Positions 2,778-45,603 of a stretch of DNA of 64,000 bases are shown here, piece after piece. Below the pieces are notes generated by a model. The model saw nothing but the letters and a program-made list of their open reading frames with translations. It had not been told where the DNA came from and did no database searches. The stretch is from Promethearchaeota archaeon (GTDB lineage: Archaea; Asgardarchaeota; Lokiarchaeia; Sigyniarchaeales; SOKP01): assembly GCA_048937405.1 (NCBI GenBank), contig JBHLNF010000005.1, positions 128,001 to 192,000 on the forward strand, read 5' to 3'. Position 1 is the first letter of the stretch, and each line of letters opens with the position of its first letter. Made by a program: the position numbers and the translations under genes.

Positions 2778-3959
2778 ATGAATATCTTATTAATATCTCA
2801 TTTCTTCCCACCGCATAGAGGAGGAGTTGAAACTGCTAGTTATAATACTATGAGAAATTTAGCTAAATTAGGGCATAATGTTGTAGTATTAACAAGTAAA
2901 GATAGAGATATTAAGTGTAAAGTCGAAGAGAAAAATGGGTCATTAATTTATAGGTTCAAGTCATATTATCCACCAGAAATAAAAGGCTTAACTCAAAGTT
3001 CAAATCTAGGGATAATGCCTAAAGCTATATTAAAATTACCAAAAATTATAAAAAAACATAAAATTCATCTTATTCATGTTGAGGGCCGTTTCTTTCCAAT
3101 ATCTTTTATCTCCGCTTTTTTGAATCATTTTATTTTTAAAAAGCCAATACTGGTCACTGCTCAGGGAAGGTTAAGAGGAGGGATAACTAAATTTGTTGAA
3201 AGAATATTTGATAAAACCATTACCAGAACTGTTTATCAAAAAACAAACAAAATAATTTGTGTGAGTAATTCTCTAAAGCAATATTTATTAAAAGAAAATA
3301 TTAATGAAAGAAAATTAATAGTAATTCCAAATGGAGTCGATACTGATCTTTTTACTAGGATCAAAACTTCAGATATTTTAGATAAATATATTGAGACAAA
3401 AAAAGACTGTAGAAAAGTAATTTTTGTAGGGAGATTAGATAAACAGAAAGGAGTTGAATATTTACTAAAAGCTATACCAAAAATCATTAAGGAATATGAA
3501 AAATCACATTTTTTCATATTAGGAAATGGAATTTTAGAAATGAAATTAAAAAACCTTGTTGAAAAATTAGATATTAAATCATATGTTACGTTTCTAGATA
3601 TGGTACCTTTGGAAAAAATGCCTGAGTATTATTCTGCAGCTGAGATTTTTTGTTTACCTTCTATTCATGAAGGTTTTCCCTTAACTATTAGTGAGGCATT
3701 GTCAATTGGTCTTGTTATAGTAGCTTCAAATACTGAAGGTATTCCAGATGCAATATTGGAAGGAGAACACGGTTTTTTATTTGAACCTGGTAATGTATCT
3801 CAATTAGCTGAGAAAATTGTAATGGCTTTGAATCTAACGTCACAGGAAGCTAAAAGAATTTCTGAAAATAATACTAAGTTAGCAAAAGAAAAATATTCAT
3901 GGGAGATTATTGTTAAAAAACTATTAAATGTGTATAAAAGTTGTTTTAAGTACAGTTGA
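2778..3959 (+). CDS. Glycosyltransferase family 4 (GT-B)
   Basis: FFPPHRGGVE, IPNGVD, FVGRLDKQKG, PSIHEGFPLTISEA (E-x7-E). Confidence 0.93.
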   Translation: MNILLISHFFPPHRGGVETASYNTMRNLAKLGHNVVVLTSKDRDIKCKVEEKNGSLIYRFKSYYPPEIKGLTQSSNLGIMPKAILKLPKIIKKHKIHLIHVEGRFFPISFISAFLNHFIFKKPILVTAQGRLRGGITKFVERIFDKTITRTVYQKTNKIICVSNSLKQYLLKENINERKLIVIPNGVDTDLFTRIKTSDILDKYIETKKDCRKVIFVGRLDKQKGVEYLLKAIPKIIKEYEKSHFFILGNGILEMKLKNLVEKLDIKSYVTFLDMVPLEKMPEYYSAAEIFCLPSIHEGFPLTISEALSIGLVIVASNTEGIPDAILEGEHGFLFEPGNVSQLAEKIVMALNLTSQEAKRISENNTKLAKEKYSWEIIVKKLLNVYKSCFKYS

Positions 3960-4017
3960 TTTCTAATTCTTTTTTTAAATCTATATTAAAATACATAAAA
4001 AATAAAGAACTAGTAAA

Positions 4018-5211
4018 ATGAATATAATAAGAATAAGTACAAGAATTTTTCCTGATAAAGGTGGCCCCGCAAAACAATCATATCTCTTGTCCAAATATTG
4101 TTCTAAAATAAATATCCGTGCTTTTAATATTGCATGCATTCTATCAAGGAAATATTATAGAGACAAAAAAAAAGTTAATCAAAATTTTGAAATTCAATAT
4201 CTCCCATTTAAAGCACCAGGCGTTAACGCCAATGTATTGAAACATGGACTTTTTTTCTTCAAATTTATGTTTTATGGGATATTAAAAATGATTAAAATAA
4301 TCAGAAGAGAGAAAATTGACTTAATTCATGCTCATACTCCACCACCCTCTGGATTCATAGCTCTTATAATAAGTAAACTTTTCCGAATTCCATATTTTTA
4401 TACTTTACATGGATCACAAGTTCCAGTTAATTTCCTCTTAGATCTAGATTATAAATTATGCGTGAAAAATGCAAAAAAAACATTTATTGTTAATAGGCGT
4501 TTATTGAATTTAATTAAAAAAAAGTATGATTTTCACAATTTAGAATGGTTTCCAAATGGTATCGAAATTTCTAATAAGGGTGATTCAAAATTTAAACAAG
4601 AAAAATCCTTGATAATTAAAAAAATTGATTTGGAAAAATATTGTCAAAAAGAGGATTTTATTATTTCATATATTGGTTATATGATTTTTCGTCATAAAGT
4701 AAAAGGTATGATCGATTTTTTAGAAGGCTTCAAAAAATTTATAGATAAATTACCTTCAGCAGAAGAAAGATCTAAAATTAAGTTACTTTTTATTGGTGAT
4801 GGTGAATTCTCTTATTTATTAAAAAATAAGATTAATCAATTAAAATTAGATGATCAGGTCTTTGTTTTAGGAGAACGAAAAGATATTAAAAAGGTTTTAT
4901 TGATCACAGATTTATTAGGTCTAACTTCTTATATAGAAGGTTTTCCCAATGTAATTTTAGAAGCAATGGCATCAAATGTTCCTTGCTTAGCCACAAATGT
5001 AGGAGAAGTTAAACATATCATTGGAGAAACAGGATATATTGTTCAACCAGGTGATATTGTAAGTATAGGACAAAAATTAGGAAATTTTTACAATTTAACA
5101 GAAACTAAACGCAAAAAAATGGGAGAAAAGGCTTTTAATCGAGTAAGAAACTTATTTGATATAAAAATTATTATAAAGAAATTAAAAGACTATTACATCT
5201 CTGTTGATTGA
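4018..5211 (+). CDS. Glycosyltransferase family 4
   Basis: FPDKGGPA, FPNGIE, IGDG, SYIEGFPNVILEAMAS. Confidence 0.92.
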   Translation: MNIIRISTRIFPDKGGPAKQSYLLSKYCSKINIRAFNIACILSRKYYRDKKKVNQNFEIQYLPFKAPGVNANVLKHGLFFFKFMFYGILKMIKIIRREKIDLIHAHTPPPSGFIALIISKLFRIPYFYTLHGSQVPVNFLLDLDYKLCVKNAKKTFIVNRRLLNLIKKKYDFHNLEWFPNGIEISNKGDSKFKQEKSLIIKKIDLEKYCQKEDFIISYIGYMIFRHKVKGMIDFLEGFKKFIDKLPSAEERSKIKLLFIGDGEFSYLLKNKINQLKLDDQVFVLGERKDIKKVLLITDLLGLTSYIEGFPNVILEAMASNVPCLATNVGEVKHIIGETGYIVQPGDIVSIGQKLGNFYNLTETKRKKMGEKAFNRVRNLFDIKIIIKKLKDYYISVD

Positions 5212-5214
5212 TTC

Positions 5215-5222
5215 TTTTTTTT
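5215..5222 (+). terminator. Oligo-T tract (archaeal-type intrinsic terminator candidate)
   Basis: T8 immediately after the stop codon, no GC hairpin. Similar tracts at 3970-3976, 26457-26464, 57245-57252 and 62413-62421. Weak evidence in such AT-rich DNA. Confidence 0.35.
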
Positions 5223-5349
5223 ACACTAGATTTTCAGTTATTTTTCAAATTCTTATAAATTTAGTGAAAAAATAATTATAATATGAATAATACTAAAACT
5301 TAATATCTCCTAAACAAAAAGGATTATTAGTCAAAATTTATTGAATTCT

Positions 5350-6471
5350 ATGAAAAAAAAGATTTTAATAGTGATTCCTTCATTGGAAATTGGTGGAGGA
5401 GCAGAGAGAGTTGCAGCTTCATTAACAAAAAAATTAGCAAAAAAGTATACTGTTTTTATAATTACATTTTATAATTTTCAAAAAACTTATCCATATGAGG
5501 GATTTTATCATTCTCTTAATCTAAAATTAAAGACTTGGCGCAGAATTTTCCTCCCTATTAACATTTTTAAAGTTATTCAACCAATTTCTCCGGATTTAAT
5601 AATTTCCTTTTTAGCCCACACGAATATCTTAATTATTTTAATAAAAATTTTATTTCGAATGAAGATACCATTAATCATATGTAATCATACTAATCTTAAA
5701 ATGGCATATAAAGATAGAAAAAAATATATAAATTTTTTTGTAAAAATATTATATCGATTAAATTGGATTAAAAAGATTATTACGATATCAAAGGAAAATC
5801 ACGCTTCTTTAGTAAATGATTACAATATAAAAAAGAGTTTAATAACAACAATTCATAATGGAATTGATCTCCAAGAGATCAGAGAATTAAGCAATGCTGA
5901 AGTAAATTACAGAGGAATATTTGAAAATAAAGAAATTATCAAATTTATCACAATTGGGAGATTACACGAATTAAAAAGACATAGAGATCTTATTATAGCG
6001 TTCTCTAGGGTTAAGTCTGAGATAATTAATGCAAAATTATTCATTATTGGAGATGGATCTTTAAGAAAAGAACTAGAAGAACTAATAAAACAAAAAGACT
6101 TAGAAAATGACATCATTTTACTAGGATTAGTAGAAAATCCATATAGTTATCTCTCAAAATCAGACATTTTTGTACTGTCCTCTAAATATGAAGTTTTTCC
6201 TATGGTTTTACTTGAAGCATTAGCATGTGGGCTTCCAATAATATCAACTAATTGTAAGACAGGGCCTCAAGAAATTCTAAACAACGGCCAATATGGAATC
6301 TTGACAAAAGTAATGGATTCTGATGAATTAGCTGAAAAAATGATTTATTTAGCTAAAAATGAAGACTTTAGAGAGAAGTATGCTAAGAAATCATTAGAAA
6401 GAGCTAAAATTTTTGATATTAATAATATTTCAGAAGAATGGTTCGATCTTATTGATTCCTATATTGGTTAA
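5350..6471 (+). CDS. Glycosyltransferase family 4 (PglJ/WabH-like)
   Basis: GGGAERV, IHNGID, IGRLHELKRH, SKYEVFPMVLLEALACG, CKTGPQEIL. ATG at 5350 preferred over TTG at 5341. Confidence 0.92.
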   Translation: MKKKILIVIPSLEIGGGAERVAASLTKKLAKKYTVFIITFYNFQKTYPYEGFYHSLNLKLKTWRRIFLPINIFKVIQPISPDLIISFLAHTNILIILIKILFRMKIPLIICNHTNLKMAYKDRKKYINFFVKILYRLNWIKKIITISKENHASLVNDYNIKKSLITTIHNGIDLQEIRELSNAEVNYRGIFENKEIIKFITIGRLHELKRHRDLIIAFSRVKSEIINAKLFIIGDGSLRKELEELIKQKDLENDIILLGLVENPYSYLSKSDIFVLSSKYEVFPMVLLEALACGLPIISTNCKTGPQEILNNGQYGILTKVMDSDELAEKMIYLAKNEDFREKYAKKSLERAKIFDINNISEEWFDLIDSYIG

Positions 6472-6690
6472 ACTGTTATATTAATAAATTTCTTCCTTTA
6501 TCTTAGCAGAGATTTCATTAAAAAAATTAATCCCAATTTATAACTTTTAAAGTTTGCCAGAAAATCATTTTATTTAACAAAAAACATGGATTTTGAAATA
6601 TAAAAACTAATGATCTCAACTTATTTGTATCATAAAATATTTTTTTTAATGATATAGTATTGATTTTTTATTGATCAAATAAATATAAAG

Positions 6691-7809
6691 ATGTATAAAA
6701 AATTAAAAATTTGCATTGTTTCACCGAGAATTTATTCACTATTCAATAACCAATGCAAAGTTCCTTATGGTGGAGCAGAAGTTCAATTATACTTACTATC
6801 TAAAGAATTTGTAAAAAACGAATTTATCAAATTGACAATAATTACAGGAGATTATGATTTAAAAAAAGCAAAAATAGAATATCATAATAATCTATTATTA
6901 TATATTACTCAACCTCTCTCTAAAAAATTTATAAATTTTTTAAAAAGACCTATTTTATTATTTCTTACATTAAAAAATATTAATCCAAACATAGTTATTC
7001 AAAGAGTTGGAGGTATTGAAACTGGAATCTGTGCTTTTTATGCGAAATTATTCAAAAAAAAGTTCATTTTTTCAATTGCTCATGAATATGATGTAATAAA
7101 AAATGGCAATATAGGCATATCTGGTTTCTTTTATAGATACGGATTAAAAAATGCTGATTTTATAGTAGCACAATCTAAAAGCCAAATTTCTAAATTAGAA
7201 TCATGGAGAAAAAAAAAAATTAATAATATTAAAGTTATAAAAAGTGGATATAGTATCTCCAATTTAGATATCAAAGAGAAGAATAATATTCTATGGGTAG
7301 GAAGAGCTGCTAAATGGAAAAGACCTGAATTATTTTTAAAGTTAGCAGAAAAGTTACCTAATGAACAATTCATCATAATATGTAATAAGAGTACGGATAT
7401 GGCATATTGGAATAAGATTTTTCTTGAATCAAAAGTTATGGAGAATATTGAATTCATAAAATATATCCCTTTCAATAATATTGAAGATTTTTTTAGAAAA
7501 GCCAAAATTTTTATTAGTACTTCACTTAAGGAAGGGTTTCCTAACACTTTTATTCAAGCCTTAAAGAATAGAACCCCTATTATTTCATTAAATGTAGATC
7601 CTGATAAATTTTTAACCAAAAATAAAATAGGATTTTTTTGTAACGATAATTTTATTGAGATGGTTAAAAATTTGAAATTACTGATAGAAAATCATGAATT
7701 ATATGAAAATTACTCTTTAAACGCATTATTATATGTTCAAAAACACCATGATATTAGTATAATTGGAAATAAATGGATTAAATTGATTTTAGGAATAAAT
7801 AAATCCTAA
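6691..7809 (+). CDS. Glycosyltransferase family 4
   Basis: YGGAEVQ, LWVGRAAKWKRPE, SLKEGFPNTFIQA. Confidence 0.9.
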   Translation: MYKKLKICIVSPRIYSLFNNQCKVPYGGAEVQLYLLSKEFVKNEFIKLTIITGDYDLKKAKIEYHNNLLLYITQPLSKKFINFLKRPILLFLTLKNINPNIVIQRVGGIETGICAFYAKLFKKKFIFSIAHEYDVIKNGNIGISGFFYRYGLKNADFIVAQSKSQISKLESWRKKKINNIKVIKSGYSISNLDIKEKNNILWVGRAAKWKRPELFLKLAEKLPNEQFIIICNKSTDMAYWNKIFLESKVMENIEFIKYIPFNNIEDFFRKAKIFISTSLKEGFPNTFIQALKNRTPIISLNVDPDKFLTKNKIGFFCNDNFIEMVKNLKLLIENHELYENYSLNALLYVQKHHDISIIGNKWIKLILGINKS

Positions 7810-8163: not shown

Positions 8164-9624
8164 ATGAAAATCTTAATGAAACTGCTAAATTTATTGAGTA
8201 AAAATTTAAAAAATAAAGAATTACTAATTAATTTAATGATAAAGATTAAAATTCTAAAGAATCTCAATCATATTATAAAGAAGTTTATTTTCGAAAAGCT
8301 TTTAGGTCTGAACTTTTCATTTTTACATGATTCTTTTTTTGCGGATATCTACAATGATGTTTCATTTATAAGAAATCCCATTTTATTTGGAAAACGTATT
8401 TATAGTAGTTTTAGATACGTAAAAGATAAAAAAATTCAAGAATTTAAAGAATTTATAAGGTATGGGGAAAAAAAATTAAGTATTAGTAAAATTTATTGGG
8501 CTAATCCTAAAAACATAAAGTATAACTTAGAAGATAATTTTTTTAACTCATCTGATTACTCCTTAACTTTAACAGGTGATTGGGATCTACCTGTTAAATA
8601 CTTTAAAGATCTTTCTGTATATAGAGCTCTTAAACAGAGAATTAAAGAAGGAAAGAATTGGGAAGAAATTGAATTTTATAATCGAAGTCTGAATGAAATT
8701 TCTAAAGGAATAAATAAATTGGGTTGTAAAAATAAAGAAGAATTGGAAATTAAGATAAGAAATATAGATTCCTTATCTAATCAATTAAAAGAAGATAGTA
8801 GGCTTCTGATGGGAAATATTAAATATTTAAAAAAAATTTTTAGAAATCTAAGAACTCAAACGATTATAGATAAGATTATCGTTGTCATTGGAAGAAATGG
8901 ACAACTTATTCATGCTAGTGATGGAATTGGTCTATCAATTGCCAAATTATTTAATATTCCTTTAGTACCAATTTATATTACTGCTAGGCATAAGAAATGG
9001 ATGGATTTTAGAAAAGAACTAATCTACTTTATCAGAAAATATAATAATGGAATACTTTATCAACCCATAACTCATCCTGATCTTCAATATTTCCCCAATC
9101 AACATGGGGAAACCCGTTATTATATGATTAAAGAAAATATCTCCATTTCCCAGGGAAAAATTCTTGATATTGGAGCGAATTTAGGATATTTCTGTCATAG
9201 ATTTGAAGATGAGGGATATGATTGTTATGCTGCTGAAAAAAATCTAATTAATTCATATTTTTTAAAAAAACTACATCGTGCAGAAAATAAAAAGTTTAAA
9301 ATTATATTAGGTTCAATCTTTGAATATAAAAAAAATCAAGAGTTACATTTCGATATAGTTTTTGCTTTGAATATTTTTCATCATTTTTTAAAGACAAAGA
9401 ATCTTTATTTAAATTTAATCAAATTATTAAAAAGACTTAACGTAAAGGAGCTATACTTTGGTCCACATACACTAAACTATTTTCGAAATAAGCCGTTTTA
9501 TAGAAATTATAACCCAGAACAGTTCGTAAACTTTATAATTAAAAATTCTAGTTTAAAACGAGCAAAATTCATAGGAAAGACTATAGATGGAAGATCTTTA
9601 TACAAAATTACATCTTATGACTAA
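8164..9624 (+). CDS. Degenerate ParB/Srx-like domain + intact class I SAM methyltransferase (WbdD-methyltransferase-like)
   Basis: YQPITHPD, ILDIGANLG (motif I), AAEKN, FDIVFALNIFHH. N-terminal half is paralogous to 10977 but DGRHR is replaced by SDGIG. The real start may be downstream of 8164. Confidence 0.7.
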   Translation: MKILMKLLNLLSKNLKNKELLINLMIKIKILKNLNHIIKKFIFEKLLGLNFSFLHDSFFADIYNDVSFIRNPILFGKRIYSSFRYVKDKKIQEFKEFIRYGEKKLSISKIYWANPKNIKYNLEDNFFNSSDYSLTLTGDWDLPVKYFKDLSVYRALKQRIKEGKNWEEIEFYNRSLNEISKGINKLGCKNKEELEIKIRNIDSLSNQLKEDSRLLMGNIKYLKKIFRNLRTQTIIDKIIVVIGRNGQLIHASDGIGLSIAKLFNIPLVPIYITARHKKWMDFRKELIYFIRKYNNGILYQPITHPDLQYFPNQHGETRYYMIKENISISQGKILDIGANLGYFCHRFEDEGYDCYAAEKNLINSYFLKKLHRAENKKFKIILGSIFEYKKNQELHFDIVFALNIFHHFLKTKNLYLNLIKLLKRLNVKELYFGPHTLNYFRNKPFYRNYNPEQFVNFIIKNSSLKRAKFIGKTIDGRSLYKITSYD

Positions 9625-9742
9625 ATCCCCCTACATAAGAGTTATTCATCTGTTAATTTAGAAAATACTCTTTATTAAATAACTTAAATTGTTTGATATC
9701 ATTATTTAAATTTAAAATACAATGACTTATTTAAAATTTTAG

Positions 9743-10945
9743 ATGAAAATTGCTGTAATCACTGATCATATTCCTTCTAAATGGGCTCATAGTATTAATA
9801 CTATGAAGATGGCTCAGGGTTTTTTTAAATTAGGACATAAAGTAGAGGTTTTAGTTATCCAGAGATATAAAGAAGCCAAAAACAAGTTAAAAATAAAAGA
9901 TGTTCATAATTTTTATGGTGTCAATAAAAAAGTTAAAATAAAATATTTTCGGGATTATTCCCCATATTATTTTCGGGAAATTCGATATTTAGGAGGTTTT
10001 CTGGTTGAAGCTGCTAATTTTCTAACAAGATTTTTATATCCCTTAAAAATTTTTTTCGATCCTGAAAAGAAAATTAGTTATTATTGCAAAAAAGAAAAAT
10101 TCGATTTAGCGTTCTGCAGAAGAGCATATAAAACAGTATATTATAATACTTTCAATAAAATATCAACAATTTTAGATGTTCATGATTATAGAAATGCAGA
10201 ATTAAATGATATTGTAAAATTGAATAACAATGTATACTTTAAAGGTATAATGACAATCAATAATGTAATAAAAGAAAAATTGATTAAGTTTGGTTTCGCA
10301 AGAGAGAAATTTGCAGTTATGGATAATGCAGTAGAATTAAATAAATTTAACCAAATAACTGATAATAAATTAGAGTTAAGAAAAAAATTAAATCTACCAT
10401 TAAATAGAAGGATTATATTATATTCTGGAGCATTATATAATAATCGAGGTATTGATAGTATTTTAAATGCATCAAATTTGCTAAAACATAAAGATATTTC
10501 ATTTTTTTTTATTGGTGGAGATACAAAATCTATTAAACGGTGGAAAAAATTTATTTCGAAGAATTCAATTTTAGCAAATATAAGTTTTTTAGGATGGAAG
10601 GAACGGAATTTGGTTCCATTATATCTCAAAGCTTCTGATATTTTATTAGCAACATATTCAGTAAATTGTCCAACATTAGATATAATGTCCCCAGTAAAAC
10701 TTATCGAATACATGGCATCAAAAACTCCTTCTATTGTAACAAAAATAGGTAGAAATATTGAATTATGTGAAGATTATACTAATTGTTTATTTACTAAACC
10801 TGATGATCCAAGAGATTTGAGTGAAAAAATCGAAATTCTACTTTTAAATGATGAACTTAAGAATAAATTGATAACGAATGCTTATGCTAAAGCAAAAAAT
10901 TATACATTTGAAAAAAGATGCCAAAAAATTCTTGAATTATTATAA
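9743..10945 (+). CDS. Glycosyltransferase family 4
   Basis: AHSINTMKMA, DNAVE, YSGALYNNRG, SPVKLIEYMAS. Confidence 0.9.
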   Translation: MKIAVITDHIPSKWAHSINTMKMAQGFFKLGHKVEVLVIQRYKEAKNKLKIKDVHNFYGVNKKVKIKYFRDYSPYYFREIRYLGGFLVEAANFLTRFLYPLKIFFDPEKKISYYCKKEKFDLAFCRRAYKTVYYNTFNKISTILDVHDYRNAELNDIVKLNNNVYFKGIMTINNVIKEKLIKFGFAREKFAVMDNAVELNKFNQITDNKLELRKKLNLPLNRRIILYSGALYNNRGIDSILNASNLLKHKDISFFFIGGDTKSIKRWKKFISKNSILANISFLGWKERNLVPLYLKASDILLATYSVNCPTLDIMSPVKLIEYMASKTPSIVTKIGRNIELCEDYTNCLFTKPDDPRDLSEKIEILLLNDELKNKLITNAYAKAKNYTFEKRCQKILELL

Positions 10946-10976
10946 TTCAAAAACATCGTAGAAATAATGTTATACT

Positions 10977-12305
10977 ATGAAAAATGTAAAATTATTAATG
11001 AAAAAACTTGATTTAAGGAGATCTATTGAAAAATTAAAAGTGAAAAACTACTTCTTAGGGGGTGTGCTCTTAATTGTTTGGGACACACTCAAAGCTCTCA
11101 AATTTAATTTTAAAAAAAAAATATCAAAATTCCAAATACGTTTGAAATATGGCGTTAGTAAATTATTTTTTAATAGACTTTGTTGGATCAATCCAAAAGA
11201 GATACAATATTGTGTTGAAAGTGATTTTGATAAAAATGAAGATTTTTTGCATATAATTGATGGTAATTGGGATAATTCGAATAGGCTTTTCGAAGATCTA
11301 GATATTTTTCAATCATTTAAACAACGTTACGCTTATAATAAAAACTGGGATGAGACTGAATTTTATCATAGAGTACTCAACCAAATTTCAAGAGGGATTA
11401 AAAAATGGGGATGTGAGACCAAAGAAGGTTTAGATAATCGAGTTAGAACCATAGACGCTCTTTATTCTCAAATAAAGAAAAATGGATTCAAATCAAGAAA
11501 AGAATTAAACATTTCAACAAGCTGGTTTGGGAAAATAGCAAAACCTGAATATTCTGATGAGATTGCTTTAATGGTTGGCAGAAAAGGAGAACTATTGTTT
11601 TTCGATGGGAGGCATAGACTGTCAATTGCTAAATTGCTTAAAATCCCTGAAATTCCAATAAAGATTATAGCAAGACATAAAAAATGGATGGCGTTTCGCT
11701 ATAACTTTTTATTATATAGCAAGAATGAATTGAAAAAAAAATTTTCCCATTCTTTAAAGCATCCAGATTTACAAGATATCCCTATTCATGAGGAAGATTC
11801 GATTTTTAAGATAATAAAGAAGAATCTAACTCTAACTTGTGGTTCCTTATTAGATTTAAGTGCTAAATTGGGATATATCTGCCATAGATTTGATACTAAG
11901 GGATATAATTGCTTAGCATTTGAGAAAAATCCACATAACTTATACTTCTTAAAAATGCTAAAAATCATCGAGAAGTGGAATTTTAAAATTATCGAACCTA
12001 AACTATTAGAAAAAAATATGTACAAAAATTTGGATGTAGATATTATTTTAATATTAGATATTTTTGGTGATTATTTTACCAATAAGGAAAGTAACTTATT
12101 ATTAATTAAAATTTTAAGTAAATTTAAGCCAAAAGAATTATTAATTGGGATAAATATTCCTAATAATTTTCAAAAAATAGGATATCGGAAAAATTTAACA
12201 TCTAAAGATATCTTGAATCTAATTACTGAAACATCCAACTTGAATACACAACATTTCATTGGAGAAGCAAATGATGGAACCTTATTCTACAAATTTACGG
12301 CCTAA
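10977..12305 (+). CDS. ParB/Srx-like (DGRHR) domain + degenerate methyltransferase-like domain
   Basis: VGRKGELLFFDGRHRLSIAK...IPIKI; methyltransferase motifs degenerate (LLDLSAKLG, LDIFGD). Paralog of 8164. Confidence 0.68.
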   Translation: MKNVKLLMKKLDLRRSIEKLKVKNYFLGGVLLIVWDTLKALKFNFKKKISKFQIRLKYGVSKLFFNRLCWINPKEIQYCVESDFDKNEDFLHIIDGNWDNSNRLFEDLDIFQSFKQRYAYNKNWDETEFYHRVLNQISRGIKKWGCETKEGLDNRVRTIDALYSQIKKNGFKSRKELNISTSWFGKIAKPEYSDEIALMVGRKGELLFFDGRHRLSIAKLLKIPEIPIKIIARHKKWMAFRYNFLLYSKNELKKKFSHSLKHPDLQDIPIHEEDSIFKIIKKNLTLTCGSLLDLSAKLGYICHRFDTKGYNCLAFEKNPHNLYFLKMLKIIEKWNFKIIEPKLLEKNMYKNLDVDIILILDIFGDYFTNKESNLLLIKILSKFKPKELLIGINIPNNFQKIGYRKNLTSKDILNLITETSNLNTQHFIGEANDGTLFYKFTA

Positions 12306-12976: not shown

Positions 12977-14872
12977 TTATTTAAAAACAATTTTTTGAAT
13001 TAATTTTAATATCTTTTCTGCGGGAACTTCATTTTTATCATAATAAGAATAATTCAGGGCAGTTCTTTTTAAATCTTCAGAATATTTATTGTAAAGATCT
13101 TTATTTTTTACTAAATTCTTAATATTTTTAGCTAATTCTTTTTGATTCTTTACATTTATTAGAAGATCATTTTCTACAAAGAGATAAGATCCTATCTTGA
13201 TAAAATCTAGATTTACTAAATCCAATTTAATTGTTGGTATTCCAATTATCATTGCTTCTAAAATGGTAGTTGATTGTCTTGCTAATAATAAATTACATGT
13301 ATAGATAAGATCCAAGATGTTATAATCTTTTACAATAATAGGATCTACACCAAGTTTATTAAAAATTTGCTTATGAATTTTACCATTCTCACCAGGATGT
13401 AGCTTTATAATGAAATTCTCAACCAAATCCAAATCTTTTAAACAACTTATTATTGCCATAAAAATTTTCTCATAAGAGATCTCATCTAATGTATTTGTCG
13501 CCAATAATATGGTAAATTTATCTGGTGTAAATTCATAAGTTCGATCACTAAAAAGATCCTTTATTTCATTCAATTTTTTAATTTGGTTTTTAAACAAAAC
13601 CTCATAACGAGGTCTCCCAGTTATTATAATATTTTTCCCTGATTTTCCTTTGGATATCATGTATTCTTTATCTTTTTTGCATTCTAATGCATAAAAATCA
13701 ACATTTGGTTTGGTAACCATTTGATGAAAGATTGGATATGCTGAATGTGGAATATGAATCGTTGGAATTTGATTTTTTTTACAATAATTAATAAAAAGTC
13801 GACCATCTGTTTTGTAATCATTAGTTATTATTACCACAGAAGGCTTATTCATTTTAATTATCTGTTTGAAAAGATAAAAATCATTAAAAATATCGATTAA
13901 TAAGCTAAATAAATTATCAAAGTAAAAATCTTTTATTAAACCTGTTAATTTTATTGAACCATACTCTATATAATCAGCTGAACTTGCGAGATTGCCTAAC
14001 CAAATCTCTCTTTTGAGCTTCAAAAACTTGAATAATTGAGTAAATCGATTTAAGGGTATAAAATGATTTAAATTTCCCCTATTATATATAATAGGGTTAA
14101 TTAATTTATTTTTTTTAAGGAGCGAATATATTGGCTTGATACTTTCAATTTGATTTTTTGTTCTAGCAGTAATTAATACGTTTTCTTGTGATTTATTTAT
14201 GGAAGAACTCTTAGTTACAATTTTCTTGAACCAGAAGGATTTTAGATTTTCACTTAATAAATTAAGGAAATATTTTATGTGTGAAGATACTGCAAAACTA
14301 TTATTCAAAATTAAAATTGAATCTGAAAAAACTTCAACATTTCTAACCCTTTTGTTTAAAACCTTAAAAAAATCTAAGAAATTAGGGTTATAATTAAATA
14401 GAATAGTCTTATTATAATCATCTGAGGAAACGATGTTTTTGATTAATTCATATTCTCCAAAAACCTGGTTAAGATATCTTAACAATACAAGTTCGATAAG
14501 ATCTCCAATAAATACTCCCTTTAAATGAAAAATCTGTGATTCAATTAAAATATTAAATATTTTAGATAACATCTCTTTGTTTTCTTTCATGAGTTTATCT
14601 AAAATTTGTAAGAAGGTTAAATGGTCTAGTTTTACTCTAAAATGTGAAAGCATTTCAATCTTAGTATTATTTGATTTTATCGCGATTGTTTTCCTATTTG
14701 TTATTATTTTAATATCTAGCTTTTCATGATATGTCTTCTTTAACTTAGATATCAAACGATTTAATTTTTGATTTATATAAAAATTGAGAAACTTATTTAG
14801 CCTCTTCGTTAATTTTAAATAATCTCGGTTAAATAAATTATCCAAAATGAGAATTTTTTTCTCTTTTTCCAT
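12977..14872 (-). CDS. GT-B fold protein, candidate nonulosonate/polyol-phosphate transferase
   Basis: HIPHS, ITGRPRYE, IKLHP, STTILEAM. Divergent from neuB; paralog of 21144. Confidence 0.6.
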   Translation of the reverse strand: MEKEKKILILDNLFNRDYLKLTKRLNKFLNFYINQKLNRLISKLKKTYHEKLDIKIITNRKTIAIKSNNTKIEMLSHFRVKLDHLTFLQILDKLMKENKEMLSKIFNILIESQIFHLKGVFIGDLIELVLLRYLNQVFGEYELIKNIVSSDDYNKTILFNYNPNFLDFFKVLNKRVRNVEVFSDSILILNNSFAVSSHIKYFLNLLSENLKSFWFKKIVTKSSSINKSQENVLITARTKNQIESIKPIYSLLKKNKLINPIIYNRGNLNHFIPLNRFTQLFKFLKLKREIWLGNLASSADYIEYGSIKLTGLIKDFYFDNLFSLLIDIFNDFYLFKQIIKMNKPSVVIITNDYKTDGRLFINYCKKNQIPTIHIPHSAYPIFHQMVTKPNVDFYALECKKDKEYMISKGKSGKNIIITGRPRYEVLFKNQIKKLNEIKDLFSDRTYEFTPDKFTILLATNTLDEISYEKIFMAIISCLKDLDLVENFIIKLHPGENGKIHKQIFNKLGVDPIIVKDYNILDLIYTCNLLLARQSTTILEAMIIGIPTIKLDLVNLDFIKIGSYLFVENDLLINVKNQKELAKNIKNLVKNKDLYNKYSEDLKRTALNYSYYDKNEVPAEKILKLIQKIVFK

Positions 14873-15019
14873 CGAATTGCATCATGAAATCTATAACTTA
14901 AGTTTTTTTAATTAATACATTTATAAAAAAACAAATTAGATGAGAAAACATAAACTTTTATTTTAAATATTATTTTCTATTTTATACTATATTTAAGAAA
15001 CTTAATTATAACAAGATTT

Positions 15020-16057
15020 ATGGAAACCACTATGGAATATTTAGGTAAAAAGATTCAGAGTTGCGAATTTTTTATCATTGCAGAGGTTGGACTTAATCAT
15101 AATGGTAGTTTTGGTAATGCTTTAAGATTAATTGATGAAGCTCAAAAAGCGGGAGTAAATGCAGTGAAATTTCAACTTCACATCTCTGAGAAAGAAAGAA
15201 TGAAAAATGCTCCAATTCCAGAATATTTTACTCTTGAAACTCGGGATGAATATTTTGATAGAACCGCTTTTTCTTTAAACGAATGGATAAAAATAAAAAA
15301 CTATGCTCATGAAAATAAATTATATTTTATAGTGTCTCCTTTTTCGCATAAAGCAGTAGATATATTAGAACAAGTTAATGTTGATGCCTATAAAATCGCA
15401 TCAGGGGAAACTACAAATATTCCATTATTAGAATATATAAATTCTAAAAATAAACCTGTCTTACTCTCTACTGGGATGTCTAATTGGCAAGAAATTTTAA
15501 ATGCAATTGATACTTTGAAGAAAAATCTAATAGTTTTATTCCAATGCTCTTCTCAGTACCCATGTCCACCAGAAAATATTGGTTTGAATATAATCACTAA
15601 AATGAAACAAAAATTTAGTGATTTAACTATAGGATTTTCAGATCATACTCCGGATTGTTACACTTCTATTGGAGCATATATTATGGGTGCTAGAGTTTTC
15701 GAAAAACACTTTACATTATCAAAAAAAGTATATGGTCCTGACGCAAGTTTATCCTTAGAACCTCATGAATTAAAAGAATATGTTAATGGTATATCTTATA
15801 TCTCCAAAGCTTTGAACAATCCAGTTGATAAGGATAATATTGAAAAATATAAACTCGCGAAATTAAAATATGAAAAAAGTATTGTAGCGGCCAAAGATTT
15901 AGAAAAGGATCATATTTTAGAATACCAAGATTTAGATTTTAAAAAGCCGGGAGATGGGCTAAGAGCTGATAAATATAAGGACATCATCGGTATGAAAGTA
16001 ACTACAAATATAAAAAAAGATGAAAAAATAGAATTTGAAAAATTAATGGATAATTAG
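15020..16057 (+). CDS. neuB: N-acetylneuraminate/nonulosonate synthase family (NeuB + SAF domain)
   Basis: IIAEVGLNHNG, AVKFQ, KIASGE, LSTGM, GFSDHT, EKHFT, GPD, C-terminal KKPGDG. Confidence 0.92.
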   Translation: METTMEYLGKKIQSCEFFIIAEVGLNHNGSFGNALRLIDEAQKAGVNAVKFQLHISEKERMKNAPIPEYFTLETRDEYFDRTAFSLNEWIKIKNYAHENKLYFIVSPFSHKAVDILEQVNVDAYKIASGETTNIPLLEYINSKNKPVLLSTGMSNWQEILNAIDTLKKNLIVLFQCSSQYPCPPENIGLNIITKMKQKFSDLTIGFSDHTPDCYTSIGAYIMGARVFEKHFTLSKKVYGPDASLSLEPHELKEYVNGISYISKALNNPVDKDNIEKYKLAKLKYEKSIVAAKDLEKDHILEYQDLDFKKPGDGLRADKYKDIIGMKVTTNIKKDEKIEFEKLMDN

Positions 16058-21143: not shown

Positions 21144-23048
21144 ATGAAAATCCTGATTCTAGATAACATTTTTAATAAAGAAATTAAAAAGAAATCCAAA
21201 TTGATTAATAAATTATTATTTAATTATAAACGGATGAAATTATACGGATTATTAGATAAATTAAAAAGAATTTATAACCAGAATATAGATATCACACTAG
21301 TCTCTAATGATACAAAATTATCTAATATTAAATTTAAAATTAATGTTGAATTACTCTCAGACTTTAGAATTGATTTAGAGCGAAGAGAATTCTTAAAAAT
21401 TTTAAAAAAAGTAAAAGAATCTACTAAATCAAATTATTCTAATCTTATTAGAAATCTGAAAAATTTAAAGCAATTCTATATAAACAAAATCTTTATGGGC
21501 GATCTATTTGAAGGTAATTTTGTACGATTTTTCAATTTAATTTTTGGAGAATATGAATTAATAAAAAAAATAATTCAATCAAATAATTTTGATCAAATTT
21601 TATTGTTTAATTGTAATTTAAATTTAGTTGAATTCTTCAAGAATTTGAACCTCAAAAATCATAATATTAAAATATTTAAAAATCCAATTTTTAAGAAAAA
21701 AAAACTAATAGTTAGACTGCATAATGCGTTCTATCTCTTAAAGGGATTAATTGAAAATATATTTGAGCAATTTCTTCGATCCCAAAAGTTAGTATATCAA
21801 CAGAATAACTTCCAAAATGATCCTGGGAGAAAAAAAGTTGTATTCCATGGCACTTCAAAAAATCAGAAAAAAAGTTTAGAACCTATATACGAATACGTTA
21901 AAATAAATAGGACTGACTTAAATCCAATTAAATATTTTTATACATTTAAACACACAATTCCAAGAAATTCTATTACTGATTATCTAAGATTCTTGTTTTT
22001 AATGAAAAGAGTATGGTTTAATAATCTGGATACTATCTCAAGAAACATGAATTATGCCGAATCAGTAGATATAGTTAATATATTAGATGATTTTTATCAT
22101 TATGAATTATTATTTATCTTAATTATAATTTTTAATAATTTCTGGCATTTCAAGGAATTTCTAAAAATGGTTGATCCAGATATTTTGGTAATCGCTAATC
22201 ATTTTAGAGTTGAGCCAAAACTTTTTACGAAATATTGTTATTTAAAAAATATCCCAACTTTATTCGTTCCTCATTCTGCAATCGTAACTTTTGATGAATT
22301 AATTACTAAATCTTATATTAGATATTTTACTGTTCCAGGTGAAAGAGATAAAGCTTATTTGGTTGAAAATGAGGACAGGATCAGTAATATCATAGTTACC
22401 GGAAGGCCTAGATATGAAATTTTCTATAAGGGTGAGATAAATCGCTTAAAGGAAGTTAAGGATATGTACTCCAACAGGATTTATAAGTTTGAACAAAATA
22501 AATTTACTGTTGTATTAACAACAAGTCATTTTAATGAAAAAACTACTGAAAAAATAATATCGTCTGCTGTTCAAGCATTAAAACCGTTAGGATTGATTAA
22601 TAATTTAGTTATAAAAATCCATCCTCAAGAAGAAGGAACAATTCATAAGAAGGTTTCTCAAAATTTAAATGTTAATCCAATAATCATTAGAGATTATAAC
22701 ATATTAGAGATTATCCAATCCAGTAATTTATTATTAACTGTTCCTTCAACAACTGTCTTAGAGGCAATGGTTATTGGCACTCCGGTTATTATATTAGATT
22801 TTATAAATTTAGAATTTAATAATACAGGTAAATTTATTTTTCAAGAAGAGGAATCAATAATAACTGCATCTGATGGAATAAATTTATCTGAAAATATTAA
22901 AAAACTATATGAAAATAAAGATTTTTATCAAAAATACTCAAAGAGAATAAAGGAATTAGGTAATGGATACTCTTATTATAATGAAAACGAAGGACCTATA
23001 TTAAAAATAGTTAATCTTATCCAAAAATCGACTAAATTAGCAGATTGA
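21144..23048 (+). CDS. GT-B fold protein, candidate nonulosonate/polyol-phosphate transferase (paralog of 12977)
   Basis: MKILILDN, FVPHS, VTGRPRYE, IKIHP, STTVLEAM. Confidence 0.6.
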   Translation: MKILILDNIFNKEIKKKSKLINKLLFNYKRMKLYGLLDKLKRIYNQNIDITLVSNDTKLSNIKFKINVELLSDFRIDLERREFLKILKKVKESTKSNYSNLIRNLKNLKQFYINKIFMGDLFEGNFVRFFNLIFGEYELIKKIIQSNNFDQILLFNCNLNLVEFFKNLNLKNHNIKIFKNPIFKKKKLIVRLHNAFYLLKGLIENIFEQFLRSQKLVYQQNNFQNDPGRKKVVFHGTSKNQKKSLEPIYEYVKINRTDLNPIKYFYTFKHTIPRNSITDYLRFLFLMKRVWFNNLDTISRNMNYAESVDIVNILDDFYHYELLFILIIIFNNFWHFKEFLKMVDPDILVIANHFRVEPKLFTKYCYLKNIPTLFVPHSAIVTFDELITKSYIRYFTVPGERDKAYLVENEDRISNIIVTGRPRYEIFYKGEINRLKEVKDMYSNRIYKFEQNKFTVVLTTSHFNEKTTEKIISSAVQALKPLGLINNLVIKIHPQEEGTIHKKVSQNLNVNPIIIRDYNILEIIQSSNLLLTVPSTTVLEAMVIGTPVIILDFINLEFNNTGKFIFQEEESIITASDGINLSENIKKLYENKDFYQKYSKRIKELGNGYSYYNENEGPILKIVNLIQKSTKLAD

Positions 23049-45598: not shown

Positions 45599-45603
45599 TT
45601 TGG

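What the first reader, a model, noticed from the sequence alone, without database searches (positions are those of the whole stretch)
8164..12305. Paralogous ParB/Srx-like + WbdD-type methyltransferase fusions with reciprocally inactivated domains: candidate new kinase/methyl glycan-capping system
Seen: both genes share one two-domain layout. 10977 keeps the ParB/Srx-fold motif DGRHR (11604-11618) but has a broken methyltransferase (LDLSAKLG; YQPITHPD to SHSLKHPD; LNIFHH to LDIFGD). 8164 has DGRHR replaced by SDGIG but an intact methyltransferase (YQPITHPD, LDIGANLG, FDIVFALNIFHH). From memory these motifs parallel the methyltransferase of E. coli O9a WbdD (YQTIFGHP...LDLG...LSVFHH), which methylates a terminal phosphate added by its own kinase domain. 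The ParB/Srx fold includes kinases (SerK, SbnI). Inference: a methyl-phosphate (or phosphonate methyl ester) cap in which a ParB/Srx domain replaces WbdD's protein-kinase fold, with the work split between the two copies, perhaps as a heteromer. They flank a GT4.
Basis: partly seen in the sequence, partly recalled or inferred. Interest (0 to 1): 0.8.

Follow-up and report, generated by a model that had tools for sequence, protein, structure and literature searches.

The report
Split ParB/Srx-methyltransferase glycan enzyme pair
Two sister genes in an Asgard archaeon's sugar-chain cluster each keep one working half of a two-part enzyme (a ParB/sulfiredoxin-type nucleotide-binding domain plus a methyltransferase resembling the E. 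coli enzyme that methylates a phosphate on a glycan), so together they probably add a methyl-phosphate group to a surface glycan, using a kinase fold I found no report of in glycan synthesis.

Summary

**The two genes.** Genes 8164-9624 and 10977-12305 are paralogues, 38% identical over 396 aa with no gaps. They flank a GT4 glycosyltransferase.

**N-domain.** It is a ParB/Srx-fold core with a helical insert. Two structure searches and an SbnI profile match agree on this. Pfam does not detect it.

**C-domain.** It is a class I SAM methyltransferase. A profile of intact family members has E. coli O9a WbdD as its best solved relative (E 1.4e-8). The family's Y and HH align with WbdD Y16, H132 and H133, which are essential for methylating phosphate.

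**Reciprocal loss.**
- 10977 keeps DGRHR but has lost the Y, the motif I glycine and HH.
- 8164 shows the reverse.
- Domain scores confirm this: 219/148 bits against 153/265, with intact medians of 218/270.

**Wider family.** Most homologues (59 of 90 locus-derived copies) are single proteins with both sites intact. They sit in glycan loci and are sometimes fused to GT2, GT4 or GT26. Reciprocally degenerate pairs recur: a second pair lies in this genome, and others occur in two more Promethearchaeota and two Anaerolineae.

**Limits.** Kinase activity, the methyl-phosphate product and a heteromer are inferred, not shown. Thirteen related genomes carry only the methyltransferase-live form, and five of them re-searched have no intact partner, so a heteromer is not obligatory.

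The scan has noted this family before on other DNA.

The parts
8164..9624 (+). B-type paralogue (P0001, 486 aa). Its ParB/Srx-like domain has a destroyed P-motif and its WbdD-like SAM methyltransferase is intact.
   Evidence: Translation. Alignment to P0002. Weak Methyltransf_12/23/11 hits. Domain scores: N 153.0 bits, MT 264.6 bits.
8467..9045 (+). Degenerate ParB/Srx-like domain of P0001. GDWD (8575-8586) and RHKKW (8983-9000) are kept. The GxHR motif is replaced by SDGIG (8917-8931).
   Evidence: Row in N-domain alignment A2. Motif coordinates. Reduced N-domain score.
9025..9612 (+). Intact methyltransferase domain of P0001: YQPITHPD 9058-9081, motif I LDIGANLG 9163-9186, LNIFHH 9367-9384, and a near-invariant family Arg (DGR) at 9586-9594.
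   Evidence: First row of alignment A3. The A3 profile's top solved hit is WbdD, with Y and HH aligned to Y16, H132 and H133.
9743..10945 (+). GT4 glycosyltransferase lying between the two paralogues.
   Evidence: Glycos_transf_1 E 2.3e-23, Glyco_trans_1_4 E 1.7e-17. Across family loci, a GT4 is the immediate same-strand neighbour in 51 of the adjacencies tallied.
10977..12305 (+). A-type paralogue (P0002, 442 aa). Its ParB/Srx-like domain is intact and its methyltransferase domain is degenerate.
   Evidence: Translation. AF2 model, pLDDT 87.2, pTM 0.80. Domain scores: N 218.9 bits, MT 147.9 bits. No Pfam or NCBIfam hit.
11154..11732 (+). Intact ParB/Srx-like domain of P0002. DGRHR lies at 11604-11618. 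The core is interrupted by a helical insert of about 65 residues.
   Evidence: AF2 model of this segment, pLDDT 90.7. Foldseek and VIA top hits are sulfiredoxin, KorB, PadC, SerK, SbnI and ParB. Profile hit to SbnI across the DGxHR strand-helix-strand, E 0.009.
11733..12302 (+). Dead methyltransferase domain of P0002: SHSLKHPD 11745-11768 (Y lost), LDLSAKLG 11850-11873 (motif I Gly to Ser), LDIFGD 12054-12071 (HH lost), DGT 12273-12281 (Arg lost). The fold is retained.
   Evidence: Motif coordinates. Class I MT fold, Z 14-16. Still 77% identical to the orthologue P0004, against 84% for the N-domain.
2778..7809 (+). Four consecutive GT4 genes upstream on the same strand. They probably belong to the same transcription unit or glycan assembly line.
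   Evidence: Pfam Glycos_transf_1 and Glyco_transf_4 hits for all four.

Best explanation
The two genes are diverged copies of one widespread, uncharacterised glycan-locus enzyme. That enzyme has an N-terminal ParB/sulfiredoxin-fold nucleotide-binding domain and a C-terminal WbdD-like SAM methyltransferase.

In most organisms one polypeptide carries both active sites. In this Promethearchaeia (Asgard) genome the work is divided between the two copies:
- The 10977 protein keeps the GxHR phosphate-binding motif and has a dead methyltransferase.
- The 8164 protein has lost GxHR and keeps the SAM site and the Tyr/His-His cluster.

Most likely mechanism, all steps inferred:
1. On the cytoplasmic face of the membrane, the neighbouring GT4 enzymes build a lipid-linked glycan.
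2. The live ParB/Srx domain uses an NTP (probably ATP) to phosphorylate a sugar hydroxyl.
3. The live methyltransferase methylates that phosphate. The product is a methyl-phosphate group like the one WbdD puts on the E. coli O9a O-antigen.
4. The dead domains are kept as folded scaffolds, plausibly to hold the two paralogues together as a heterodimer.

Shown here: homology, folds, motif states, family distribution and gene context. Inferred: kinase chemistry, the product and the complex.
For: Paralogy.

ParB/Srx core:
- N-domain model pLDDT 90.7.
- Foldseek top hits are all Srx/KorB/Noc/SbnI/ParB/SerK, best E 5e-3.
- An independent all-against-48,161-chain search puts Srx first (Z 5.9), then PadC, KorB, Atu1540, SerK and SbnI.
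- The N-domain profile's best PDB hits are the three SbnI sequences, E 0.009-0.017, aligned on GRxG...DGxHR...IPV.
- An Atlas structural neighbour is automatically named 'ParB/Sulfiredoxin domain-containing protein'.
- ParB-annotated SerK is a real kinase (PMC5120207).
- ParB-fold/methyltransferase fusions of other families bind ATP (PMC12704722).

Methyltransferase:
- The profile of intact domains hits WbdD first (E 1.4e-8). PH0226 follows at 5.5e-8 and the next hit is at 3.6e-5.
- The family YQ..HP aligns to WbdD I15-Y16-Q17..HPE, and FHH aligns to F131-H132-H133.
- Y16F, H132A, H133A and R203A abolish phosphate methylation. The authors assign the ability to use a phosphate nucleophile to H132, H133 and R203 (PMC3482155).
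- These same positions are the ones lost in P0002.

Glycan role:
- GT4 is present in 63 of 80 loci and is usually adjacent.
- Epimerases, DegT, Wzx and ABC transporters are nearby.
- Natural fusions exist: N+MT+GT2+GT4, N+MT+GT4 and GT26+N+MT.

Division of labour:
- Domain scores are reciprocal.
- The pattern repeats in a second pair in this genome and in loci L011, L016, L045, L082 and L055/L088.
- The dead MT is still 77% identical between orthologues.

Precedent: methyl-phosphate terminators already use two different kinase types, in WbdD and in K. pneumoniae O7 ORF6 (PMC11231755).
Against: - No assay was done. Kinase activity is only an analogy with SerK, SbnI and Srx.
- ParB/Srx structural scores are modest (Z under 6, Foldseek E above 1e-3). 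Pfam ParBc does not match any of 63 members.
- The Asp of DGxHR varies within the family (D, N, E, H).
- A clade of 13 related genomes each has a single N-dead/MT-live copy. In the five re-searched with the N-domain profile, no intact N-domain was found. Either the methyltransferase does not need this kinase, or its nucleophile is not a phosphate.
- Per the WbdD paper, one of NodS/RebM also has two His at the HH positions, so HH is not unique to phosphate methylation.
- The WbdD R203 equivalent could not be aligned.
- By fold, using the dead MT model, WbdD is not separated from dozens of class I methyltransferases.
- Family loci hold Wzx flippases (20 loci) more often than ABC transporters (12), unlike classical chain terminators.
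- No C-terminal coiled-coil ruler is present.
Confidence: 0.4

Rival explanations
1. The ParB/Srx-like domain is not a kinase. It would be a nucleotide-dependent switch, a dimerisation module or a substrate-binding module (nucleotide-sugar or lipid-pyrophosphate). The methyltransferase would O-methylate a sugar hydroxyl or esterify a uronic or nonulosonic acid carboxylate. The pair would then be an enzyme (8164) plus a regulatory or scaffolding pseudoenzyme (10977).
For: - Most characterised ParB-fold proteins are CTP or ATP switches, not kinases (PMC12704722).
- MT-live/N-dead proteins work without any intact partner in related genomes.
- Basic near-invariant residues (R143, H154, R155, R174, H175 of A2) could bind any phosphorylated ligand.
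- A NeuB/NeuC/CMP-synthetase block lies 3 kb downstream.
- HH also occurs in a non-phosphate methyltransferase.
Against: - The MT profile's best solved relative is the phosphate-methylating WbdD, and the catalytic Tyr and His-His align.
- The N-domain motif is HR, as in the phosphotransferases Srx, SerK and SbnI (from my own knowledge ParB has RR at these positions).
- Stand-alone N-domain proteins sit in glycan loci without this methyltransferase. That fits an autonomous catalytic role better than a regulatory one.
Confidence: 0.3
2. The two paralogues are independent single-function enzymes that do not form a complex. One would be a phosphotransferase only, leaving an unmethylated phosphate. 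The other would be a methyltransferase only. They would act on different sugars or on different glycans of this very large island.
For: - Each half-function exists alone elsewhere: the B-only clade; A-type alone in L063 and with only an N-domain-only copy nearby in L043; and hundreds of stand-alone N-domain proteins.
- The genome has two such pairs, plus both ABC-2 and Wzx export routes.
Against: - In seven loci the A-type (or N-domain-only, or near-intact) copy and the B-type copy lie adjacent, divergently adjacent or one gene apart.
- The dead domains are retained and conserved, at 77% identity between orthologues. That is unexpected if they have no role.
- The ancestral protein joins both activities in one chain.
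Confidence: 0.15
3. The system is linked to sulfation. The ParB/Srx-like domain would use APS or PAPS, or act on a sulfated sugar, rather than ATP.
For: - The second pair in this genome lies directly after an ATP sulfurylase, a PF01663 phosphodiesterase-like gene and an APS kinase.
- The same cassette accompanies the family in two other Promethearchaeota loci, L016 and L078.
Against: - The cassette is seen in only three of about 80 loci, with an APS kinase alone in a fourth (L067), and it is absent next to the window pair.
- I know of no ParB/Srx-fold sulfotransferase.
- The PAPS genes could serve a separate sulfotransferase of the same glycan.
Confidence: 0.05
4. It is a nucleic-acid enzyme, a DNA or RNA methyltransferase with a ParB domain like the phage ParB-methyltransferase fusions.
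For: ParB-fold fusions to N6/N4 and Methyltransf_23 domains are common in phages and are predicted to act on DNA (PMC12704722).
Against: - Neighbours are glycan genes throughout.
- The family is fused to GT2, GT4 and GT26.
- Neither Pfam nor the AF2 model shows an HTH domain.
- A scan of 2.9 million viral contigs found only one 41-residue match.
Confidence: 0.02

Closest known systems
WbdD of E. coli O9a / Klebsiella pneumoniae O3 (bifunctional kinase-methyltransferase O-antigen terminator; PDB 4azs, 4azw, 4ax8, 4uw0)
   Same: - A two-activity protein of a glycan locus.
- Its class I SAM methyltransferase is the best solved sequence relative of the family's intact MT domain (E 1.4e-8).
- Y16, H132 and H133, essential for methylating the sugar phosphate, align with the family's near-invariant Y and HH.
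   Different: - Domain order is reversed. Here the nucleotide-binding domain is N-terminal.
- The partner domain is ParB/Srx fold, not a protein-kinase-like fold.
- There is no C-terminal coiled-coil ruler.
- Family loci often use Wzx rather than ABC export.
- The R203 equivalent is unverified.
- Here the two activities sit on two half-dead paralogues.
K. pneumoniae O7 ORF6 N-terminal methyltransferase-kinase terminator (PMC11231755)
   Same: It shows that methyl-phosphate capping has been built more than once from a methyltransferase and an unrelated kinase. It is fused to glycosyltransferase modules, as some members of this family are.
   Different: Its kinase is AmiN-like and its methyltransferase is CgnL-like. 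It carries a coiled coil. I found no sequence relationship to this family.
SerK (Thermococcus kodakarensis TK0378) and SbnI (Staphylococcus) free serine kinases; sulfiredoxin
   Same: ParB/Srx fold used for phosphoryl transfer from a nucleotide. They share the strand-DGxHR-helix-strand core. SbnI is the best PDB sequence hit of the N-domain profile and Srx is the best structural hit.
   Different: The match covers only about 40 residues by sequence and 46-95 by structure. This family has a helical insert of about 65 residues and its own conserved motifs (GDWD, RHKKW). Its substrate would be a glycan, not serine or a sulfinic acid. The C-terminal domains differ.
ParB-CTPase-fold fusions to methyltransferases surveyed in PMC12704722
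   Same: The architecture is a ParB-fold domain followed by a SAM methyltransferase. ATP binding was shown for such fusions, and it was abolished by an Arg-to-Ala change in the P-motif.
   Different: Those fusions were found through the ParB Pfam model, are enriched in phages and prophages, and are read as DNA methyltransferases. This family is invisible to Pfam ParBc, is almost absent from viral contigs and lies in glycan loci.

Membership tests
ParB/Srx (ParB-CTPase) fold superfamily | Core fold of the ParB N-terminal domain / sulfiredoxin | tested here: met
   On the N-domain model (pLDDT 90.7), Foldseek's top 14 rows are sulfiredoxin. KorB, Noc, SbnI, ParB, PadC and SerK follow, best E 5e-3. 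VIA wide search: Srx Z 5.9 (rmsd 4.5, 85 aligned), PadC 4.5, KorB 4.5, SerK 4.3, SbnI 4.0. Scores are modest but consistent across two aligners and the sequence profile.
ParB/Srx (ParB-CTPase) fold superfamily | Box II / P-motif Gly-x-x-Arg that binds the nucleotide phosphates | tested here: met
   P0002 DGRHR aligns with SbnI DGVHR. G, H and R are at least 90% conserved in 76 N-domains. It is not met in P0001 (SDGIG), which is the point of the finding.
ParB/Srx (ParB-CTPase) fold superfamily | Match to the Pfam ParB N-terminal domain model (PF02195) | tested here: not met
   No ParBc hit at E up to 1 in P0001, P0002 or any of 63 family members.
ParB/Srx (ParB-CTPase) fold superfamily | Binds or hydrolyses an NTP | not testable with these tools
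   Needs DRaCALA, ITC or an activity assay.
SerK/SbnI free serine kinases | Full-length homology including their C-terminal domain | tested here: not met
   Sequence alignment to SbnI covers only about 40 residues. Structural alignments cover at most 85 residues of SerK and SbnI chains of about 240-254 residues. The rest of the protein is a methyltransferase.
WbdD-type kinase-methyltransferase glycan terminators | Class I SAM methyltransferase with an intact SAM motif I | tested here: met
   P0001 has LDIGANLG and weak Methyltransf_12/23/11 hits. The family profile hits WbdD first. Fold Z is 14-16 to class I MTs. Not met in P0002 (LDLSAKLG).
WbdD-type kinase-methyltransferase glycan terminators | Residues essential for methylating phosphate: Y16, H132, H133 | tested here: met
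   The HMMER alignment places the family Y of YQPLTHPD on Y16 and FHH on F131-H132-H133 (4uw0 numbering). Mutant data are in PMC3482155. These residues are present in P0001 and lost in P0002.
WbdD-type kinase-methyltransferase glycan terminators | R203 equivalent completing the phosphate site | tested here: inconclusive
   The family has a near-invariant Arg 70 residues after HH (R190 of A3). That is the same spacing as H133 to R203. The alignment to WbdD stops before it, and no residue-level structural alignment was available.
WbdD-type kinase-methyltransferase glycan terminators | Protein-kinase-like (eukaryotic-type) kinase domain | tested here: not met
   No kinase family in Pfam or NCBIfam. 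The non-MT domain has a ParB/Srx fold.
WbdD-type kinase-methyltransferase glycan terminators | C-terminal coiled-coil ruler and membrane/polymerase-binding region | tested here: not met
   The AF2 model ends with the MT beta-hairpin at residue 441. Only an N-terminal helical hairpin (residues 2-58) is extra.
WbdD-type kinase-methyltransferase glycan terminators | ABC-transporter-dependent pathway context | tested here: inconclusive
   ABC-2 permease/ATPase pairs lie in the island (window 44672-46425; L005 11863-13603), but so does a Wzx-like flippase (54098-55741). Across family loci, Wzx is in 20 and the ABC ATPase in 12.
WbdD-type kinase-methyltransferase glycan terminators | Product is a methyl-phosphate on the glycan | not testable with these tools
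   Needs 1H-31P NMR or MS of reaction products or of the native glycan.

The most novel reading that the evidence does not exclude
A ParB/sulfiredoxin-fold domain is a bona fide glycan kinase, a third and unrelated kinase type for methyl-phosphate modification of glycans. In Asgard archaea the bifunctional enzyme has evolved into an obligate heterodimer of two reciprocally half-dead paralogues, which decorates the cell-surface glycan.
Probability: 0.3. Interest if true: 0.8.

Novelty: new variant of a known kind. Interest (0 to 1): 0.68.

Why it matters
**A new role for the ParB/Srx fold.** If the mechanism holds, the fold known from chromosome partition, sulfiredoxin and free serine kinases gains a role in polysaccharide chemistry. 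Methyl-phosphate decoration, so far documented in the sources read here only for a few enterobacterial O-antigens, would be widespread. The N-domain profile finds 4804 representative proteins, across CPR bacteria, Chloroflexota, Planctomycetota, Proteobacteria, haloarchaea, Bathyarchaeia and Asgard archaea.

**A natural separation of function.** The reciprocal pairs give one protein per activity, and each keeps the other domain as a pseudoenzyme. That makes the two steps separately assayable. It is also a clean case of subfunctionalisation, with an apparent intermediate stage: in L011 the partner still looks nearly intact.

**Asgard surface glycans.** Almost nothing is known about the surface glycans of Asgard archaea, so this points to a concrete and testable modification.

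Tried and rejected
- **Single-sequence Pfam, NCBIfam and PDB searches.** They gave nothing for P0002 and only sub-threshold methyltransferase hits for P0001.
- **Foldseek on the full-length model.** Methyltransferase hits swamped the list and hid the N-domain. Folding the N-domain alone solved this.
- **VIA second look on the full model.** It does not rank WbdD in the top 50; all rows are tied at Z 14-16.3. Fold alone therefore does not make the MT 'WbdD-type'. That model is of the dead domain.
- **The look-up of encoding contigs.** Per-domain amino-acid identity was used instead.
- **Viral contigs.** One 41-residue match only. A phage origin or phage family was rejected.
- **Independent origins of the N-dead form.** Trees favour at least two origins. 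An AU test does not reject a single clade of all N-dead copies (p 0.15, lnL difference 36.6), so convergence is not proven.
- **Archaeal SSU rRNA.** Not found in the assembly. Lineage was inferred from identical family sequences shared between unnamed relatives and named Promethearchaeia MAGs.
- **Atlas feature search.** It returned only unnamed clusters.
- **Primary SbnI paper.** It is not in the library.

Full report
**1. Observation**

The window is AT-rich (24-33% GC) and is C18:128001-192000 of a 4.47-Mb, 29-contig assembly.

ORFs 8164-9624 (P0001, 486 aa) and 10977-12305 (P0002, 442 aa) lie on the + strand with ORF 9743-10945 (P0003) between them.

P0001 and P0002 align over 396 residues without a gap, at 38% identity and E 6e-84. 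P0003 is a GT4 glycosyltransferase. Four more GT4 genes precede the trio on the same strand. A hexapeptide acyltransferase and a NeuB/NeuC/CMP-synthetase block follow.

**2. The family and its normal state**

A word-indexed search found 77 relatives, nearly all unnamed. They come from CPR bacteria, Dehalococcoidia, WOR-3, Desulfococcaceae and Thorarchaeota.

A scan of one genome per GTDB species found 142 encoding loci, and 79 were kept with 10-kb flanks. In almost all of them one polypeptide carries both of the following:
- x-G-[RKA]-H-R-L-[SA]-I-A
- YQPLTHPD, LDIGAxxG and LNIFHH

Of 90 copies of at least 370 aa taken from the loci (GTDB species representatives, relatives in the same phylum, and this genome), I scored 59 as intact in both domains, 22 as N-dead/MT-live ('B') and 9 as N-live/MT-dead or MT-missing ('A'). 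The degenerate variants are therefore not the norm. It is partly met for the B form (section 6).

**3. N-domain**

Pfam and NCBIfam see nothing in this domain, in any of 63 members.

I aligned 76 N-domains cut out by reference (A2) and folded the P0002 segment alone, giving pLDDT 90.7.
- Foldseek's list is headed by sulfiredoxin (best E 5e-3). It continues with KorB, Noc, SbnI, ParB, PadC and SerK.
- An independent aligner run against 48,161 representative chains puts Arabidopsis sulfiredoxin first (Z 5.9). PadC, KorB, human Srx, Atu1540, SerK and a Pnob8-like ParB take ranks 2-7, and SbnI is rank 9.
- The A2 profile's best PDB sequence hits are the three SbnI sequences (E 0.009-0.017). They align on the strand-DGxHR-helix-strand core.
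- An ESM Atlas structural neighbour (TM 0.85) carries the automatic name 'ParB/Sulfiredoxin domain-containing protein'.

Each score is modest, but all agree. The domain is a ParB/Srx core split by a helical insert of about 65 residues, and it has family-specific invariant residues (GDWD, IGRxG, RHxxW).

The N-domain family is large. It has 4804 representatives at E up to 1e-3, and about half of the best 150 are stand-alone proteins of 230-290 aa.

**4. C-domain**

By fold it is an ordinary class I methyltransferase. On the P0002 model (the dead copy), WbdD is one of many tied hits.

The sequence signal is more specific. A profile of 54 catalytically intact MT domains (A3) has the four WbdD entries as its best PDB hits (E 1.4e-8 to 1.8e-8). 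PH0226 follows at 5.5e-8, and everything else is at 3.6e-5 or worse.

The alignment begins at the family's YQPLT-HPD opposite WbdD I15-Y16-Q17-T-I-F-G-H-P-E. It places the family FHH on WbdD F131-H132-H133.

The WbdD structure paper reports that Y16F, H132A, H133A and R203A keep kinase activity but abolish methylation. [quoted passage not shown] A caveat from the same paper: one of NodS/RebM also has two His at these positions.

The family has a near-invariant Arg 70 residues after HH, the same spacing as H133 to R203. I could not obtain an alignment that reaches it.

**5. Reciprocal loss, quantified**

P0002 has lost the Tyr (SHSLKHPD), the first motif I glycine (LDLSAKLG), the His-His (LDIFGD) and that Arg (DGT). 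P0001 keeps all four but has SDGIG in place of DGRHR.

Scores against HMMs built only from intact members:

| Protein | N-domain (bits) | MT domain (bits) |
|---|---|---|
| P0002 | 218.9 | 147.9 |
| P0001 | 153.0 | 264.6 |
| Intact median | 217.7 | 270.1 |

The dead MT domain of P0002 still folds (model pLDDT 87.2). It is 77% identical to its orthologue P0004, against 84% for the N-domain. It is therefore retained under constraint.

**6. Recurrence and evolution**

The same genome has a second pair 36 kb upstream, at C18:91653-94299:
- Copy 1: NGKHR, IDINANLG, LNIFES.
- Copy 2: SGDFS, LDIGTNLG, LYIFHH.

Comparable pairs occur elsewhere:

| Locus | Lineage | N-live copy | N-dead copy |
|---|---|---|---|
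| L016 | Promethearchaeota | MT degenerate | MT live |
| L011 | Promethearchaeota | MT nearly intact (FNIFHK), a plausible intermediate stage | MT live |
| L045 | Anaerolineales | MT degenerate | MT live |
| L082 | Anaerolineae | N-domain-only | MT live |
| L055/L088 | Uncultured archaeon (L055) / same-genus genome G222 (L088) | N-domain-only ORF that stops about 15 bases from the contig end, so possibly truncated | MT live |

In a maximum-likelihood tree the Asgard sequences form one well-supported group with some CPR sequences (SH-aLRT 99). Within it, an intact/A lineage separates from a B lineage, which suggests one old duplication followed by stepwise decay.

The Anaerolineae B copies group with each other (99), and their nearest rows are bacterial intact members. 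However, an AU test does not reject a single clade of all B copies (p 0.15). Independent origin is therefore likely but not proven.

One result limits the heteromer idea. A separate clade of 13 genomes, mostly of a sister genus, has a single B-type copy each. In five of these genomes (95-100% complete), a search with the N-domain profile finds only that degenerate domain. The live methyltransferase can therefore function without an intact ParB/Srx partner of this family.

Conversely, stand-alone or MT-dead N-domain proteins occur without a B partner nearby (L063, L043, L075, L084).

Within the phylum sample the family is patchy. It is present in 16 of 301 genomes, all in the window's own family.

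**7. Context**

I clustered the neighbours of 80 loci and annotated the cluster representatives:

| Neighbour | Loci |
|---|---|
| GT4 | 63 |
| NAD epimerase/dehydratase | 31 |
| DegT aminotransferase | 22 |
| Wzx-type flippase | 20 |
| Hexapeptide acyltransferase | 14 |
| ABC ATPase | 12 |
| MurJ | 10 |

A GT4 is the immediate same-strand neighbour in 51 of the adjacencies tallied.

Natural fusions tie the enzyme physically to glycosyltransferases:
- N+MT+GT2+GT4 (P0203, 1559 aa).
- N+MT+GT4 (P0222, and Desulfovibrionaceae L067/L074).
- GT26(WecG/TagA)+N+MT (Rhodoferax L072).

The window's island holds both ABC-2 transporter pairs and a Wzx-like flippase.

The second pair follows an ATP sulfurylase, a PF01663 phosphodiesterase-like gene and an APS kinase. 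The same cassette accompanies the family in L016 and L078.

The family is almost absent from 2.9 million viral contigs. It is therefore distinct from the phage ParB-methyltransferase fusions surveyed in PMC12704722.

**8. Organism**

No SSU rRNA was found in the assembly. The nearest GTDB loci are Promethearchaeota. This phylum sits in the kingdom Promethearchaeati; that it is the Asgard group is from my own knowledge.

**9. Mechanism**

Shown:
- Two paralogues.
- A ParB/Srx-like fold with a live P-motif in one copy only.
- A WbdD-like methyltransferase with live SAM and Tyr/His-His sites in the other copy only.
- Ancestral single-chain enzymes with both sites.
- Tight coupling to GT4 enzymes.

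Inferred:
- The ParB/Srx domain transfers phosphate from an NTP to a sugar. This is by analogy with SerK (PMC5120207), SbnI and sulfiredoxin, which share the HR form of the motif.
- The methyltransferase methylates that phosphate, by analogy with WbdD.
- The two proteins act together, perhaps as a heterodimer descended from an ancestral homodimer.
- The N-terminal amphipathic helical hairpin holds them at the membrane.

I put about 0.4 on this full chain. About 0.3 goes to a non-kinase nucleotide-binding role with ordinary O- or carboxyl-methylation. About 0.15 goes to independent single-function enzymes without a complex. Small weights go to a sulfate link or a nucleic-acid role.

**10. Comparison and novelty**

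It works like WbdD (O9a/O3) and like the K. pneumoniae O7 ORF6 terminator. The latter already shows that the kinase partner of a methyl-phosphate terminator can be swapped (PMC11231755).

It is not a member of the WbdD family as a whole:
- The kinase fold differs.
- The domain order is reversed.
- There is no coiled-coil ruler.
- The export context is mixed.

My literature searches found no description of a ParB/Srx-methyltransferase enzyme in glycan synthesis.

Earlier notes of this scan describe the same family on other DNA, and the second pair in this genome, with the same reading. They agree with what I derived independently but are not independent evidence.

I rate the finding a new variant of a known kind. 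Its added value is the natural, recurrent split into enzyme/pseudoenzyme pairs in an Asgard archaeon.

Noticed in passing
G000:C18:87999-94299 (loci L005 17999-19147; L006 610-1155, 1629-2975, 3001-4305), 34-40 kb upstream of the window: A second reciprocally degenerate pair (NGKHR/MT-dead, then SGDFS/MT-live) lies directly after ATP sulfurylase, a PF01663 phosphodiesterase-like gene and APS kinase. The same cassette plus the family recurs in Promethearchaeota loci L016 and L078. This suggests a sulfated glycan or a functional link to PAPS.
   Followed up: partly
Loci L089-L100, L104, L105 (genomes G071, G099, G109, G113, G125, G141, G174, G222, G225, G228, G231, G261, G297): A clade of 13 related Promethearchaeia genomes carries a single copy. 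Its ParB/Srx domain is strongly decayed (about 60-90 bits against 218) and its methyltransferase is fully conserved. In five genomes searched, no intact partner was found.
   Followed up: yes
P0203 (1559 aa), P0222 (749 aa), L067:10010-12286, L072:8888-11062: Natural multidomain fusions of the ParB/Srx-MT module with GT2+GT4, GT4, or an N-terminal WecG/TagA (GT26) domain.
   Followed up: partly
L016:7742-9226, L078:9439-10824 and 14355-15752, L023:15356-17026, L042:15906-17516, L077:12047-13561; window 58344-59849: Alkaline-phosphatase-superfamily genes (PF01663 type I phosphodiesterase, and in the window a sulfatase-like gene) recur near family members. Their role in these glycan loci is unknown.
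   Followed up: no
window 12977-14872 (-) and 21144-23048 (+): Two paralogous proteins of about 630 aa bracket the neuB/neuC/neuA block. One has no Pfam hit. The other has weak C-terminal similarity to Epimerase_2 (below the curated cut-off) and Capsule_synth (KpsC/KpsS-like). They are possibly nonulosonic-acid transferases.
   Followed up: partly
window 44672-46425 (-), 54098-55741 (-); L005:11863-15296: The island holds two ABC-2 permease/ATPase pairs and a Wzx-like flippase. In L005 the ATPase is followed at once by a 566-aa protein with a C-terminal methyltransferase domain, a possible classical chain modifier.
   Followed up: no
whole assembly G000: No archaeal SSU rRNA match was found in the 29-contig assembly, although completeness is given as 100% (contamination 5.69%).
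   Followed up: no
L011:9881-12626: In this Promethearchaeota pair the N-live copy still has an almost intact methyltransferase (YQVLSHPD, LDIGANLG, FNIFHK), while its neighbour has already lost GxHR. This is a possible intermediate stage of the split.
   Followed up: partly
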